A DNA stretch of 64,000 nt from Haliotis rubra (lineage: Eukaryota), in assembly GCF_003918875.1 (NCBI RefSeq), contig NW_025767128.1, positions 868,001 to 932,000 on the forward strand. Reading direction: 5' to 3'. Made by a program: the position numbers. Numbering within the stretch: position 1 is the stretch's first letter; each line of letters begins with the position of its first letter. Of this stretch, positions 15,001-21,000 are shown piece by piece.

Positions 15001-18000
15001 TGAACCCATACACCAGTCAACGCAGCCTTGAACGTACCTTGCAGATAGTAAGATCCCTCTAGCAGATATAACGCCGACGGCAAAAATCAATGACTGTCAC
15101 TAAAATTATGGAACGAAGGGGGAGACCATCAACAGCCTCAGCAAATCCTTTCATTGCAAAGGGAAGCAACTCTTAAAAATGGTTTTACAACATTTGCATA
15201 AAAAGAATGAAACTGATGAAACTATTATCATTTATTGTTACATACTACACACACGTATGCCACTTTACCTCTTCCAATGGGTACTTCTTTCTCCTGAAGT
15301 TTGCATAACATTGGCCGGAGATTAAGAGAGCTGAACGAATTTCTACTTTGCAGACTTCATGCTTTACTGAGAAGATCATAATTCTTAAGAATTTAAATTT
15401 CTTTGATATGATATAGAACAAACTTTATGGATCACAACTTTATTTATTCGTGAGTGCGACGTTTCGATACAGATTCTTGTACCGTTGTCAAGCATAAATG
15501 GAACATGAAGAGGGGGGTATCTATCTCTATATATATATTTATATATATATATAGTGATTTCTGCAGGTGTATAAGCAATAAATATATAAAATAGAAGTGA
15601 CTAATTATCCTTGATACCAATTATGGTGACATAGCGAGAAACATGTCAAATTTCACCTTTCTTAGTTCAGCACTCTTAACGCAAATTAACGTGGAGACAA
15701 TCTTACGGCTCTTGTCAAATCAAGGTGAAAAAAACGGACATGGAAACATCCATTATCATCCAGCCGATCTTTAACCTTTAACATATGTCATTCGATGTAA
15801 TCAGCTGTGCTTGACTTCGTTTGTGTCTATAGAGAGATCGTGTTAAAGTGTCATCGCACTTGGCATAGGATCACAGACACATCCATCCTTCATCAATAAT
15901 GGACACAAAGACGGTCGTCCTGATATTCCTAGCTTTAACGACAGCAGATGGACGTTCAGCAAACAAGAAGCAGACTGAGATTCGCTACGACCCCACATGG
16001 GAGTCCCTAGATTCAAGGCCATTACCAACATGGTATGATGAAGCCAAAATTGGAGTCTTTGTGTCATGGGGAGTCTTTTCTGTACCAAGTTTTGGAAACG
16101 AGTGGTTTTGGGAAGGATGGCAAGGGGACAAAAATCCAAAATATGTTCAGTATATGCAGGACAACTATAAACCTGACTTCACCTATGCTGCCTTTGCAAG
16201 TGACTTCACGGCAGAGTTTTATGATGCTGAAGCTTGGGCTGAACTGTTTGCGGCTTCTGGAGCTAAGTATGTTGACATTTATTCACTGAGAACGTGTATG
16301 TTGTAATTGCAGCAGTAATTAATCTCTTAGTAGCGAGTGAGTGAGTATAGTTTTACGCCGCTTTTAGCAATATTCCAGCAATATCACGAAATGGCCTTTA
16401 CATATTGTACCCATGTAGGGAATAGAACCCAGGTATTCGGCGTGACGAGCGAACGCTTTGACCACTATGCTACCCCACCGCCAATAATCTCATAATAGCT
16501 TCATGGCAGCCCGAGTTAGTGGGTGACATGAGAGTGATGAGAGTGTACGTTATTTGGTGAGTGAATCGGCGAGTGAGTGTCTGCGTAACACACATCGACA
16601 TGGATATGTTTCTACAAAACCTTTGGATCAAAGGGCTAGGATGATTAAATCCTCACACAGAAAAAGATAAATGAACCTGCTTAAAAACGTTTATTCAGTA
16701 ATATGCAGAATATGTGTGATCAAAACACACCCAGTACATGCACATCGTGAGGCGATTCTAAGAAACGTTTGGCATTGAGTACAATGTGAATGTATCATTT
16801 CAGGTTGTCAAACAATCCCTAATGAAACATTCCTGGCAGTAATGATTAAAGGGGCAATGTGTTTCATATTTTAGCCATGACCTCTACTCAATACTCAATC
16901 ATGAATCACCCCATGTTCAGTCGTGTTTTTTCAGATACATTGTGTTTATAACTAAACATCATGGAGGGTTTTGTAACTGGGCGACTAATGTCAGTTTTAA
17001 CTGGAACTCAATGATGGTTGGTCCCAAGAGAGACCTTGTTGGTAATTATACGTTAAAACTTATTTCAACCTGAACAATATTTCATTGTTCAAAATTATTA
17101 ATTTTAGATTTTGTAATAGTTTAACTCGTTTAGGTTTTTATATCATCCTCTTCAGTTTTGTCGAAACAAAGTTTCGCAAATTTGAAATATTATTTTAATG
17201 TTATGAAGATAGTAATCGATTATTTTAAGAATTCAAAGAGAAGTAAATCAATTTGGCAAGGAAGCAGTGTAATTTGGTCATTTATTCTTCTGATATCAAC
17301 ATGAACAAAAACAAATTTATGCAAATATTTTTTTTATTTCAACGAAATATTATATTTTCAAATTTGATAATAGATGATCTGAAAACAAGTGTAAAATATG
17401 GGTCCTTGTGTTAATAAAAGGTGAGATGTCTCAAGCACTGAGATCAAAGACAGATCTGCGCCTTGGCCTGTATCACTCCCTGTTTGAGTGGTTCAACCCT
17501 CTGTATCTACAGGACAAGGCCAACAACTACACCACCACCAGGTTTGCTAAGGTCAGCTTTACTAAATTTATCACTGATGGATTATCGAGAATTGGACGTG
17601 AGTACCTAGGTTCGGGAGCTGGTTTTGAGTGCGAATGAAAGTGTAAGTTTGGTAGGTTAGTTCACTTCGACAGAGATGGTCTGTGTTTGTGTCCCGCCAT
17701 CCCATAGCCAGTGACGTAAACCCACACCCTTTCCTTCAGGAAAGGTAAAAGTTGCCTCTCCGAAGGACTGAAGTCAATACTAGACATCCTCAGCTGATAC
17801 TTACTGGGTTATATGGAGCTTTATACATCTAAGCAACTGATGTGGTCACCTGACCTGCTTCATTAATTAAGTTGTTAATGTTGTCTTGTTGAACCAACAG
17901 AACAGTAATCGTATTGATCGTGCAATGACATCATGTACCATAATAATCAAATAAATTTCAGGAAAAGACTATTCCTGAGCTGTATGAGCTTGTGAACACC

Positions 18001-21000
18001 TACAAGCCTGACATTGTCTGGTCTGATGGAGACTGGGAGGCAACAGATAACTACTGGGGGTCCAGGGAGTTTCTGGCCTGGCTCTACAATGACAGGTATA
18101 CGGTTGCGTTGTACCCTTTTACTTTGTGTCTTTGTTAGTCTGTCTCACAGTCCCTGAACCATATCATTTTCCCTACAGCCTAGCCCTCCCTGCAATGTTA
18201 AAGCCTTACATGAAACAAGTCTAGATTTCCTCAGGTTCTGAATCTCTGGCTTCTATGTCTTTGTGTAAATACACTAAAAACGGAAATCGGTGCACTCATG
18301 GCATATTTAGAAGGTAGAAAGGTTTCTCGTCATGACATTGACAGTATTTAACAAATGTATGTTCATTCAGTATGTTTATGGTAACTGCAACAGACCAGCA
18401 TTTGATACGTAAAATGCCCAAATAAACCACCACCTATAACAAGTACTTGTTGTACATGTACATACATTTATCTAGCTGCACAGTGTCAATGGATTTAACA
18501 ACAGAGACCTCTTTTGGTATCTTCCAAGAAATTAGGCAAGTGAATTTAAGAAGACCTGCTTGATCATAGAACGTCTGTCTGTTCTGTTGAAATTTTGCAA
18601 ATATGTCATTCATAGCTTATATAATATTTGGATTCTTGTATAGGCAGTGGTATTCACATATTCCAGCAAATGGCAAATGGGCTGGACTCAAGACAAGACT
18701 CCTCAACACAGCAACAAGCCCTAGCCATCTTGTACAAATCCATCTCTTAAATATATTCTCTTTGCAGCCCTGTGAAGGAGATAGTCGTCACCAATGACAG
18801 ATGGGGAGATGGAGACCATTGTGAACATGGAGGGTTCTTGACATGCCATGACAGGTACAATCCAGGTACGAAACATAGTGAGTGAGTTAGTAAGTATGTG
18901 TAGTGTCAACCTGATTTTAGTGATAACATGGTTGGGGGCATCGGAAATGGTTTAATACACTATACACATATGACGACTCGAAAACAGGTCTTCAGTTATT
19001 AGTGAACACTTAAACCTTAAGGCTACACTCCATCCTTCTCACTGTAGGAAACGATACAATTACGGTCAATCTCTTCCAATAATTACCTCACATGGAACTA
19101 ACACTGATCACATGAAATTAAACGTCAAAGATGAGAAATTGCCCCCGAAGACCCAGGTTCGATTCCCCACTTGGGTACAATGTGTGAAGCCCATTTCTGG
19201 TGTCCCCCGCCGTGATGTTGCTGGAATATTGCTAAAAGCGGCGTAACGCTAAACGCACTAACTGGGATTTGTAATTCAATATCAATTTATCAGTGTACGT
19301 AGATGGGGATCACTGAACTGATCAAAGAATTTACTATATTCGGAAAGTTAAAATATTTCATTGAAATATCTTAGGTTCAGAATATTGTGTGATCAGCGAT
19401 TATCAAATGAAGTTGTTGCACATGCATGAACAATAGGGCTGTGACAATCCAATTAAATGTTTTATATGTTAAAGGGGTACTTCAGCCAAGGAAGTGGGAG
19501 GATGCGATGACAATTGACAAGAAATCGTGGGGATTCCGTCGAGAGGCGGTTCTGGATGACTTTCTGACGATGGATGAGATTATAGCAGTGCTGGCTGAAA
19601 CTGTGAGGTAAGTAAACTGATTTGTTTGTTTCTTTCTTTCTTTCTTTTTAACGCTGCATTCAGCAATATTCCAGCTGTGTGGCGGCGGTCTGCAAATAAT
19701 CGACTCTGGACCAGACAATCCAGTAACCAACGATATGAGCATTGATCTACGGTAATATATATATGGCCTACATGAAACAAGAGGTTAATAATATGATCAA
19801 CGTCCTGTGCTTTTGATGGTATTTAGGCACGGAACCAAACAAGAAACACACCCGAAACAATATAGTGCTTCGTGCCTCCTTCCATAACCCATGTCACCGC
19901 TGTAGTGAAGTTGATGTAAAAGAGCTACACTGAACTAACGTGCATTTCCAGCAAGACATTTTAGCAGGAACTGCAGAGTAGCCCAAACATGGTTCATGAA
20001 TGGATTATTGTGTCGTGCAACCAGGATACAATATTTACTGGAATGAATACCTTATTCGGCAATATACCTGAATTCTTATTGTTACTTACCTTCCATTGTT
20101 TGGTGAAGATCTGAAGATTTCTGGTTGAACTTACTGTTTTAATTTTGAGTATCCGCTTGTGAGAGGAATCTCCATAGGCCTCAGGATAATAGTATGCCTT
20201 AGAGCTGGCAAATATCAACCTATGTACCTTTGTGAGGGATGTGACTCTGCACAATGAATTAGAAAGCTGTCCTACCTGTGACCTAACATGTATCATGATC
20301 ATACCAGTTACCAAATAGTGTTTCATGCTGTTACTCTCCTTTACAGCTGTGGAGGGAACTTGCTGATCAATGTGGGGCCAACCAAATATGGCATGATCAG
20401 TCCAATCTATGAAGAGAGACTGCGTCAGATGGGAGAATGGCTGAAGCTGAATGGAGAGGCTATCTACTCCTCCAAACCTTGGGTGGCCCAGAATGACACA
20501 GTCACACCAGGAGTTTGGTAGGTACTTTCTGTATTCCACACTTTGGGTGGCCCAGAATGACACAGTCACACCAGGAGTTTGGTAGGTACTTTGTATATTC
20601 CACACCTTGGGTGGCCCAGAACGACACAGTCACACCAGGAGTTTGGTAGGTACTTTGGCCCAGGGTAATACACCAAATCTCCTGTTGGTGGCATGGCGGT
20701 TTTCCAATAGGTATAGACATGTGGAAAACTAGGTTTGCTAGTCCTAGACATATGGACAAAATAGATTTCCTAGTCCTAGACATGTCGGGAAATCCTATTT
20801 TCATTTAGACATATGAGAATATAGGAAATATAGGATGCCACCACAAAGAGATTTGTCTCCAGACCAGGTCCAAGAAATCAGCGCCCTTCCTGGTGTGCTC
20901 CCGGCAGCCGCGGTCAAAAAGCAGATCGGTATCGGGTCCAAAGGCTCTACGACCTATGGCAAGAGCCCTCCAGCACAACTGTATTGCCCACTGCAGAACC

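What the first reader, a model, noticed from the sequence alone, without database searches (positions are those of the whole stretch)
17962..18095. Mosaic ancestry: the B1 nucleophile exon is as close to the A subfamily as to its twin B2
By manual count exon 4 differs at about 22/134 nt between B1 and B2 but about 19/134 between B1 and A2, and its last 35 nt are identical in B1 and A2. In contrast, B1/B2 exons 1 and 8 are nearly identical and A-vs-B exon 8 is very divergent. B1/B2 internal introns barely align, whereas A1/A2 introns do. This suggests exon-scale gene conversion or recombination shuffling the catalytic exons among paralogs.
Basis: partly seen in the sequence, partly recalled or inferred. 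Interest (0 to 1): 0.65.

Follow-up and report, generated by a model that had tools for sequence, protein, structure and literature searches.

The report
Mosaic abalone fucosidase gene array
A tandem cluster of abalone alpha-L-fucosidase genes has swapped pieces between copies, so the small exon carrying the catalytic aspartate has a younger shared history between two otherwise very old subfamilies; this is ordinary gene-family evolution.

Summary
The window is abalone DNA (Haliotis rubra-like). It carries a same-strand array of GH29 alpha-L-fucosidase genes, A1-B1-A2-B2, plus a truncated pseudogene A3. Each intact gene has 8 exons.

Exon 4 differs at 22/134 nt between B1 and B2 and at 19/134 between B1 and A2, and their last 35 nt are identical.

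The signal is real at exon level. At codons for the same amino acid, A and B use the same codon about as often as expected at synonymous saturation in the seven other exons. In exon 4 it is 24/30 for A1-B1 and 25/31 for A2-B1 (p about 5e-6).

Synonymous constraint explains this poorly. Codon bias is weak, and A1-A2 and B1-B2 are not slow in exon 4.

B2 is B1's twin only in exon 1 (and roughly exon 8). A 9-10 kb segmental duplication ends just inside B intron 1. In exons 2-7, B1 pairs with an out-of-window paralog, P0004; in exons 2-6, B2 pairs with another, P0028.

Best reading: old gene conversion between the A and B1 lineages, confined to exon 4, on top of unequal-crossover chimerism.

The 35-nt identity is not independently strong (p=0.036). 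Quartet topology is congruent in every exon.

This is a known kind of process; interest is low.

The parts
17962..18095 (+). B1 exon 4 (134 nt, phase 0), the finding. It encodes the GH29 nucleophile Asp (residue 22 of the exon, residue 224 of P0005).
   Evidence: Exact match to P0005 residues 203-246 with AG/GT borders. Pfam PF01120 profile positions 189-235, E=1.1e-11. Aligned to 7pls chain index 180-222.
9956..10089 (+). A1 exon 4
   Evidence: Same length and AG/GT borders; 22/134 differences from B1.
30003..30136 (+). A2 exon 4
   Evidence: 19/134 differences from B1, with the last 35 nt identical.
37501..37634 (+). B2 exon 4
   Evidence: 22/134 differences from B1 and 29-30/134 from A1/A2. 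It carries 13 singleton sites against 3 in B1.
60740..60873 (+). A3 pseudo-exon 4, with two in-frame stops
6817..13064 (+). Gene A1: 8 exons, intact reading frame exon by exon
15899..23309 (+). Gene B1: 8 exons, identical to RefSeq protein P0005 exon by exon
   Evidence: Pfam exon by exon is colinear with PF01120 (positions 6-345) and PF16757.
27862..32699 (+). Gene A2: 8 exons, intact
35060..41092 (+). Gene B2: 8 exons, intact. It is chimeric: exon 1 is B1-like and exons 2-6 are P0028-like.
60361..64000 (+). A3: an A-type pseudogene lacking exons 1-3 (exons 4-8, running towards the window end), closest to A2
   Evidence: 85-90% identity to A2 29634-33321; stops in several exons.
5751..16303 (+). 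Segmental duplication, copy 1: A1, the intergenic region and B1 exon 1. It ends 37 nt into B1 intron 1.
   Evidence: a chain of matches at 72-91% identity to 26188-35485.
26188..35485 (+). Segmental duplication, copy 2: A2, the intergenic region and B2 exon 1
18768..18865 (+). B1 exon 5. It encodes the acid/base Asp (residue 275) and is the exon most diverged between B1 and B2 (pS 0.56).
   Evidence: PMC9548408 passages.
23052..23467 (+). B1 exon 8 plus its 3' flank, similar to B2 40835-41247 (83.5% over 418 nt). This is the second block of elevated B1-B2 similarity.
   Evidence: Run of 51 concordant polymorphic sites, p<0.0002.

Best explanation
What is shown: five tandem GH29 alpha-L-fucosidase paralogs of two old subfamilies, A and B. 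Synonymous sites between A and B are fully randomised in every exon except exon 4, the nucleophile exon.

What is inferred, two layers of non-allelic recombination:
1. Unequal crossing-over or segmental duplication, with a breakpoint in B intron 1. It copied A, the intergenic region and B exon 1 onto a different, anciently diverged B-type gene body. B1 and B2 therefore look like twins in exon 1 (and, through a separate homogenised block, in exon 8) but not in exons 2-7.
2. Interparalog gene conversion confined to exon 4 between the A lineage and the B1/P0004 lineage. It is older than the A1/A2/A3 split. The likely reason for this exon: it is the most conserved at protein level, so it is the only place where A and B retain enough nucleotide identity to pair.

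The three pairwise codon identities in exon 4 are A-B1 0.80, B1-B2 0.70 and A-B2 0.55-0.67. This ordering fits an A exon 4 nested inside the B clade next to B1, that is, transfer from B into A.

Under this reading, the six A-specific residues in the first 15 codons either arose after the transfer or were kept by selection as islands of divergence.

The 35-nt identity between A2 and B1 is the best-preserved part of this older shared tract. It is sharpened by one A2-specific Thr-to-Ala change.
For: - Per-exon Nei-Gojobori pS between A and B is 0.64-1.16 in exons 1-3 and 5-8. In exon 4 it is 0.32 (A2-B1) and 0.39 (A1-B1).
- Same-amino-acid codon identity in exon 4 is 24/30 (A1-B1) and 25/31 (A2-B1). 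In the other seven exons it is 86/213 and 91/215 (Fisher p=4e-5 and 5e-5).
- Against a saturation null built from the family's own codon usage, A1-B1 gives p=5e-6. For A2-B1 none of 200,000 simulations reached the observed value. The seven other exons fit the null for both A-B1 pairs (p=0.11 to 0.84).
- Codon bias is weak: the sum of squared codon frequencies is about 0.5 for two-fold amino acids.
- At codons invariant in amino acid across all four genes, A/B-split codons are 2/27 in exon 4 against 87/196 elsewhere (p=1e-4). B2-only codons are 6/27 against 10/196. B1-only codons are 0/27.
- Nucleotide singletons in exon 4 are 3 for B1 and 13 for B2 (p=0.02). Elsewhere they are 39 and 40.
- Exon 4 is not slow within subfamilies. 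A1-A2 shows 6 synonymous differences against 3.5 expected. A three-fold rate reduction is rejected at p=0.0013 and a five-fold one at 9e-5. B1-B2 pS is 0.51 against 0.26 in exons 2, 3, 6 and 7.
- The GENECONV-like permutation gives A2-B1 p=0.0002, and p=0.0004 over the four A-B pairs.
- Chimerism of the B genes: the duplication ends at 16303/35485. Triplet site counts switch between exons (p=3e-10 and p=0.008).
- B1 and P0004 carry Arg at exon-4 position 35, like the A types, while the other 8 B-type Haliotis proteins examined (B2 and 7 database proteins) carry Lys. A2 carries Ala at position 39 like the B types, while A1, A3 and the H. asinina A-type carry Thr.
Against: - Only two B-type and three A-type nucleotide sequences were available. 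The other paralogs exist here only as proteins, so no rooted per-exon synonymous tree could be built.
- Quartet topology is congruent in exon 4 (11:0:2).
- At protein level B1 is not unusual. Every B-type protein examined is 73-80% identical to A1/A2 in exon 4.
- A and B2 also show some excess codon identity (20/30, p=0.0016; 17/31, p=0.048). Part of the effect is therefore exon-wide and could reflect constraint.
- The six fixed A/B amino-acid differences sit among 10/10 identical synonymous codons in the first 16 codons. A simple single-tract conversion does not predict that pattern.
- No similarity between A and B1 extends into the flanking introns.
- Exon 4 holds only about 26 synonymous sites.
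- P0005 probably derives from the same assembly, so it does not independently validate the assembly.
Confidence: 0.58

Rival explanations
1. No A-B exchange. Exon 4 is the most constrained exon, at amino-acid sites and also at synonymous sites (for example through splicing enhancers near both exon ends). B1 looks close to A only because B2 belongs to a different, anciently diverged B sublineage and sits on a long branch.
For: - Exon 4 has the lowest A-B dN, 0.11-0.13 against 0.17-0.52 in the other exons.
- All B-type proteins are 73-80% identical to A in exon 4.
- A and B2 also exceed saturation.
- The A2-B1 synonymous differences cluster in the exon core, and both exon ends are identical. This is the pattern expected of splice-enhancer constraint (recalled general knowledge, not from a call).
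- B2's central exons are P0028-like.
- Quartet topology is congruent.
Against: - Within subfamilies exon 4 is not slow. A1-A2 has 6 synonymous differences against 3.5 expected, and a three-fold constraint is rejected at p=0.0013.
- B2 itself carries 6 private synonymous codons out of 27, at both exon ends. B2 therefore does not obey the supposed constraint, although it keeps the same exon structure and an open frame.
- Codon bias is weak.
- Explaining dS of 0.4-0.55 against more than 1.5 elsewhere needs a reduction of at least three- to five-fold. That is far more than the splice-enhancer effects I recall.
Confidence: 0.22
2. A recent micro-conversion of only the last 35-44 nt of exon 4 between A2 and B1.
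For: - 35 nt are identical, plus the GT donor.
- The run of 7 concordant polymorphic sites gives p=0.0002.
- A2's Ala at position 39 is derived within A and matches B. Arg at position 35 in B1/P0004 is derived within B and matches A.
Against: - Given the exon's own 19 differences, the run has p=0.036.
- From, A3 differs from B1 at 1 nt in the same 35 nt and A1 at 3. Only one A2-specific change is therefore needed.
- The 7 'concordant' sites are mostly B2 and A1 singletons.
- The excess similarity to B1 covers codons 2-16 as well and is shared by all A copies.
- The event may have happened in addition to the older one; the two are not exclusive.
Confidence: 0.12
3. An assembly artefact: paralogous reads collapsed or mis-joined, producing chimeric exons.
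For: The locus is repetitive, with 80-90% identical units. The only external support, P0005, probably comes from the same assembly.
Against: - All four genes keep open frames, identical internal exon lengths and canonical splice sites.
- The exon 4 copies differ from one another at 7-37 sites, so none is a duplicate of another.
- The signal is a graded synonymous pattern, not a block of 100% identity.
Confidence: 0.04

Closest known systems
Interlocus (non-allelic) gene conversion between tandem paralogs, detected as a local drop in synonymous divergence and as GENECONV fragments
   Same: - A local, significant drop in A-B synonymous divergence confined to one conserved segment.
- A significant permutation fragment.
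- The abstract start of PMC3966223 says conversion is facilitated by high sequence identity (seen in the search listing only).
- The abstract start of PMC3728101 describes islands of divergence persisting within converted sequence (search listing only).
   Different: - The partners here are very old paralogs, saturated at synonymous sites everywhere else.
- The tract is at most 134 nt and stops at or inside the exon borders.
- The event is old (dS about 0.4-0.55), not ongoing homogenisation.
- Direction and donor are unresolved.
Hybrid genes made by unequal crossing-over in tandem arrays (the haemoglobin Lepore and red/green opsin hybrid type; recalled, not from a call)
   Same: The duplication breakpoint lies inside B intron 1, so a B1-like exon 1 sits on a P0028-like gene body.
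   Different: Here both products are intact genes kept in the array. The relics of several partial copies lie between the genes.
Molluscan alpha-L-fucosidase multigene families
   Same: Several GH29 genes per genome, in two major molluscan clades with lineage-specific duplications, expressed in the digestive gland. The scallop has eight genes, seven of them detected in the hepatopancreas (PMC5159873, passages read).
   Different: That paper, in the passages read, does not discuss recombination among copies. No paper in the searched library holds 'fucosidase', 'Haliotis' and 'gene conversion' together (0 papers).
Human tissue alpha-L-fucosidase FucA1 (PDB 7pls/7pm4), which came back as a named hit
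   Same: Exon 4 and exon 5 peptides align without gaps. The nucleophile Asp and the acid/base Asp are 51 residues apart, as D225 and D276 are in FucA1 (PMC9548408 passages).
   Different: It is a single-copy gene in a different phylum, used here only to place the catalytic residues. Only the alignment printed by the tool was read.

Membership tests
GH29 alpha-L-fucosidase (Pfam PF01120 + PF16757) | Catalytic domain PF01120 present and colinear | tested here: met
   B1 was scanned exon by exon. Exons 1-7 cover profile positions 6-108, 110-143, 146-181, 189-235, 240-266, 270-307 and 309-345 of 345. Six of the 7 exons score above the gathering cut-off on their own; exon 5 reaches only E=0.12.
GH29 alpha-L-fucosidase (Pfam PF01120 + PF16757) | C-terminal domain PF16757 | tested here: met
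   B1 exon 8: E=4.1e-20, profile positions 11-86 of 88.
GH29 alpha-L-fucosidase (Pfam PF01120 + PF16757) | Conserved nucleophile Asp | tested here: met
   The Asp of the W-S-D-G motif in exon 4 aligns with chain index 200 of 7pls. It is present in A1, A2, B1 and B2. D225 is named as the GH29-conserved nucleophile in PMC9548408. The offset between chain index and residue number is inferred from the 51-residue spacing.
GH29 alpha-L-fucosidase (Pfam PF01120 + PF16757) | Acid/base carboxylate at the FucA1 D276 position | tested here: met
   The exon 5 Asp (exon position 28) aligns with chain index 251, 51 residues after the nucleophile. It is present in all four intact genes.
GH29 alpha-L-fucosidase (Pfam PF01120 + PF16757) | Enzymatic activity | not testable with these tools
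Interlocus gene conversion | A segment-specific drop in synonymous divergence between paralogs, relative to the rest of the gene | tested here: met
Interlocus gene conversion | A significant shared fragment by permutation of polymorphic sites | tested here: met
   A2-B1 p=0.0002, and p=0.0004 over the four A-B pairs. Conditional on exon 4 alone the run has only p=0.036.
Interlocus gene conversion | Constraint excluded as the cause | tested here: inconclusive
   The within-subfamily synonymous rate is not reduced and codon bias is weak. However, A-B2 also shows a modest excess, and exon 4 holds only about 26 synonymous sites.
Interlocus gene conversion | Rooted phylogenetic incongruence, using orthologs or further paralogs at nucleotide level | not testable with these tools
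   No abalone DNA other than the window could be fetched. The quartet topology is congruent (11:0:2) and uninformative.
Unequal-crossover hybrid gene | A duplication breakpoint inside the gene and a switch of nearest relative across it | tested here: met
   The duplication ends 37 nt into B intron 1. In exon 1 B1 pairs with B2 (9:2:3); in exons 2-6 B2 pairs with P0028 (29:9:5).

The most novel reading that the evidence does not exclude
The catalytic (nucleophile) exon is exchanged repeatedly among deeply diverged fucosidase paralogs while the introns on both sides never take part. Selection meanwhile holds a handful of subfamily-specific residues as islands of divergence. This would be exon-confined concerted evolution of a catalytic module. 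It might even run through a spliced, RNA- or cDNA-derived template.

A weak hint of recurrence: the H. cracherodii A-like protein P0062 is closer to B1 than to A1 in exon 4 only (82% against 75%). In the other seven exons it is closer to A1.
Probability: 0.1. Interest if true: 0.45.

Novelty: new member of a known kind. Interest (0 to 1): 0.22.

Why it matters
For abalone genomics the matter is practical. Orthology and gene trees for this digestive-enzyme family will be wrong if they are built on whole coding sequences, because different exons have different nearest relatives.

More generally, this is a clean small example of two effects. Protein-level conservation can channel conversion between otherwise unalignable paralogs into one exon. 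And the obvious topology test fails to see it. It does not open a new question.

Tried and rejected
- **Quartet topology per exon.** It is congruent everywhere, exon 4 included. I rejected it as a test because, with A1 and A2 as sisters, it cannot reveal an A-B1 exchange that predates the A1/A2 split.
- **A-like sequence in B1's introns 3 and 4, or anywhere in A/B intron pairs.** None was found, so intron-breakpoint exon shuffling is rejected.
- **Codon bias as the cause.** Rejected. Usage is near-uniform, and the seven other exons fit the saturation null for both A-B1 pairs.
- **Extension of the similar tract into the neighbouring exon ends, as a cDNA-templated event would predict.** By eye on the alignment, codon identity between A2 and B1 is about 7/13 at the end of exon 3 and 5/10 at the start of exon 5. 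That is near saturation, so there is no support. No script counted this.
- **An overlapping RNA element.** Rfam at gathering thresholds and a tRNA scan find nothing in or near any exon 4.
- **Literature.** Nothing on recombination among abalone fucosidase genes.
- **Nucleotide sequences of the other paralogs and orthologs.** Supplements were not consulted.

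
Full report
**What the window is**

The window has no N. A search with the exon-4 peptide returned 171 proteins, of which 120 were listed. The best full-length matches are 'alpha-L-fucosidase-like [Haliotis rubra]'.

P0005 maps exon by exon at 100% identity onto 15899-23309. The window is therefore abalone DNA, not human.

It carries, all on the + strand:
- A1 (6817-13064)
- B1 (15899-23309)
- A2 (27862-32699)
- B2 (35060-41092)
- A3, an A-type pseudogene lacking exons 1-3, from about 60361 to the window end

The four intact genes have 8 exons each. 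Internal exon lengths are identical (107, 131, 134, 98, 133 and 171 nt), all with AG/GT borders. Every exon reads open in its phase.

Scanned exon by exon, B1 covers Pfam PF01120 colinearly (profile positions 6-345) and PF16757 in exon 8.

Exon 4 carries the nucleophile Asp and exon 5 the acid/base Asp. They lie 51 residues apart, like D225 and D276 of human FucA1. This rests and on passages of PMC9548408.

**The observation**

- B1-B2 22/134
- B1-A2 19/134
- the last 35 nt of B1 and A2 identical

For context, B1-A1 is 22, B1-A3 is 25 and A1/A2-B2 is 29-30.

B1/B2 exon 1 is 95.9% identical (15/366), plus a perfect 21-nt in-frame duplication in B2. Exon 8 is 94.8% identical (12/231). These are similar rather than 'nearly identical'.

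A-versus-B exon 8 is 55-56% identical.

A1/A2 introns align strongly (z = 15 to 155). B1/B2 introns keep only traces (z = 2.6 to 15). A/B1 introns show nothing.

**Is exon 4 special?**

Yes. Synonymous divergence between A and B is saturated in every other exon (pS 0.64-1.16). In exon 4 it is 0.32 for A2-B1 and 0.39 for A1-B1, against 0.61-0.71 for A-B2.

I also counted codons that encode the same degenerate amino acid in both genes:

| Pair | Identical codons, exon 4 | Identical codons, other seven exons | Fisher p |
|---|---|---|---|
| A1-B1 | 24/30 | 86/213 | 4e-5 |
| A2-B1 | 25/31 | 91/215 | 5e-5 |

A saturation null built from the family's own codon usage fits both A-B1 pairs in the seven other exons (p = 0.11 to 0.84). 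In exon 4 it is rejected:
- A1-B1: p = 5e-6
- A2-B1: none of 200,000 simulations reached the observed value
- A1-B2: p = 0.0016
- A2-B2: p = 0.048

At codons whose amino acid is invariant in all four genes:
- A/B-split codons are 2/27 in exon 4 against 87/196 elsewhere (p = 1e-4).
- B2-private codons are 6/27 against 10/196.
- B1-private codons are 0/27.

Nucleotide singletons in exon 4 are 3 for B1 and 13 for B2 (p = 0.02). In the other exons they are 39 and 40.

**Constraint or shared ancestry?**

Four results speak against constraint:
- Codon bias is close to nil in these genes.
- Within subfamilies exon 4 is not slow. A1-A2 has 6 synonymous differences where 3.5 are expected. The three- to five-fold rate reduction needed to explain the A-B1 value is rejected at p = 0.0013 to 9e-5.
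- B1-B2 pS in exon 4 is 0.51, against 0.26 in exons 2, 3, 6 and 7.
- B2 carries private synonymous changes at both ends of the exon.

These results favour a more recent common ancestor of the A and B1 exon 4, that is, interparalog conversion.

The three codon identities are A-B1 0.80, B1-B2 0.70 and A-B2 0.55-0.67. This order is what one expects if the A lineage's exon 4 was overwritten from the B1 sublineage. That direction is an inference from small numbers.

All three A copies are similarly close to B1, so the event predates the A1/A2/A3 split.

**Points against this reading**

- Quartet topology is (A1,A2)|(B1,B2) in all eight exons, including exon 4 (11:0:2).
- At protein level B1 is not unusual. 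All B-type abalone proteins are 73-80% identical to A1/A2 in exon 4, which is simply the best conserved exon.
- Six fixed A/B amino-acid differences sit among 10/10 identical synonymous codons at the 5' end of the exon. That needs either later A-specific replacements or selection preserving islands of divergence.
- No A-like sequence reaches into B1's introns.
- The 35-nt run has only p = 0.036 given the exon's own 19 differences. The gene-wide permutation gives p = 0.0002.
- In those 35 nt A3 differs from B1 at 1 nt and A1 at 3 nt.

**B2 is not B1's twin**

A segmental duplication (5751-16303 against 26188-35485, 72-91% identity) covers A, the intergenic region and B exon 1. It stops 37 nt into B intron 1.

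Informative sites at protein level, by triplet:

| Triplet | Exons | Site counts |
|---|---|---|
| B1, P0004, B2 | 2-7 | B1=P0004 45; P0004=B2 1; B1=B2 1 |
| B1, P0004, B2 | 1+8 | B1=P0004 2; P0004=B2 9; B1=B2 7 |
| B1, B2, P0028 | 1 | B1=B2 9; B2=P0028 2; B1=P0028 3 |
| B1, B2, P0028 | 2-6 | B2=P0028 29; B1=B2 9; B1=P0028 5 |
| B1, B2, P0028 | 7 | B1=P0028 6; B2=P0028 2; B1=B2 0 |

The switch between exons 2-7 and exons 1+8 in the first triplet has p = 3e-10.

Exon 8 plus its 3' flank is a second block of B1-B2 similarity. It holds a run of 51 concordant polymorphic sites, p < 0.0002.

The B genes are therefore chimeras of different B sublineages. Part of 'B1 as close to A as to B2' reflects a deep B1-B2 split in exons 2-7, most extreme in exons 4 and 5.

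**Single-residue hints**

B1 and P0004 have Arg at exon-4 position 35, like the A types. The other 8 B-type Haliotis proteins examined (B2 and 7 database proteins) have Lys.

A2 has Ala at position 39, like the B types. A1, A3 and the H. asinina A-type P0018 have Thr.

Each is one transition. They fit small exchanges in both directions, or parallel mutation.

**Context and novelty**

Molluscs are known to carry several fucosidase genes in two clades, expressed in the digestive gland (PMC5159873, passages read).

Interlocus conversion and unequal-crossover hybrids are textbook processes. For these I saw only search listings and abstract starts (PMC3966223, PMC3728101, PMC3924837).

No paper in the searched library combines 'fucosidase', 'Haliotis' and 'gene conversion' (0 papers). 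Two broader searches showed nothing relevant among the 15 and 10 papers listed.

This is a new instance of a known kind of event.

**What stayed unchecked**

- Nucleotide sequences of the other paralogs and of orthologs.
- Supplements of papers.
- Independent validation of the assembly.

The virus-like stretch at the 5' end of the window was only described from ORFs as they stand.

Noticed in passing
An ORF of 278 aa at 811-1647 (+) matches Pfam RVT_1 (E=2.8e-22, profile positions 64-204 of 205). An ORF at 2708-3514 (-) matches zf-RVT just below the cut-off (26.9 against 27.5 bits). Two direct repeats, 1468-2245 and 2781-3640, are 94% identical. I only described the ORFs as they stand. The element was not delimited and its breaks were not counted.
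   Followed up: partly
window 4713-5339 (-): An ORF of 208 aa with a DDE_Tnp_4 transposase domain (E=2.5e-17), a Harbinger/PIF-like DNA transposon remnant upstream of A1.
   Followed up: no
window 20471-20657: A 64-nt unit repeated 2.9 times at 95% identity. It copies the last 47 nt of B1 exon 7, its splice donor and the start of intron 7, so intron 7 carries extra copies of the exon end and donor. A further partial copy lies near 22424-22453.
   Followed up: partly
window 35132-35174: A perfect 21-nt tandem duplication inside B2 exon 1. It is in frame and adds 7 residues just after the signal-peptide region.
   Followed up: partly
window 5862-5942, 14252-14406, 14553-14864, 26247-26426, 33753-33856, 33927-34211, 24501-24605: Relics of fucosidase exons with stop codons. 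They are exon-1-like, exon-3-like and exon-8-end-like, and lie upstream of A1 and A2, between A and B in both duplication units, and downstream of B1. They are debris of earlier rearrangements in the array.
   Followed up: partly
window 7483-7554 (-): A tRNA-like sequence inside A1 intron 1 (Rfam tRNA 34.8 bits; ARAGORN calls anticodon cta). That intron is 1730 nt, against 717 nt in A2. It is probably the head of a tRNA-derived SINE inserted in A1 only.
   Followed up: no
window 27240-27603, 38420-38762 (-), 53917-54276 (-): An interspersed repeat of about 360 bp, with copies 87-91% identical. One copy lies upstream of A2 exon 1, one in B2 intron 5 and one in the gene-free stretch. Two smaller repeat families also occur: 13940-14085 / 19637-19751 / 50211-50359, and 16336-16480 / 19145-19263 / 45111-45265.
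   Followed up: no
protein P0084 (outside the window) against window 9283-9417 and 29309-29443: The H. rubra database model P0084 is B-type over residues 1-383. Its last 45 residues match A-type exon 3 at 97.8%. It looks like a gene model that runs from a B gene into the neighbouring A gene. P0004, P0005 and P0084 are each listed with the same longest-contig length, 933,582 bp, which I take to be one contig, so the array probably extends beyond the window.
   Followed up: no
window 41100-60300: About 19 kb between B2 and A3 has no fucosidase match and no Pfam hit for its three ORFs of at least 140 aa (42659-43228, 52527-53195, 58186-58779). A (TA)26 microsatellite lies at 53123-53174.
   Followed up: no
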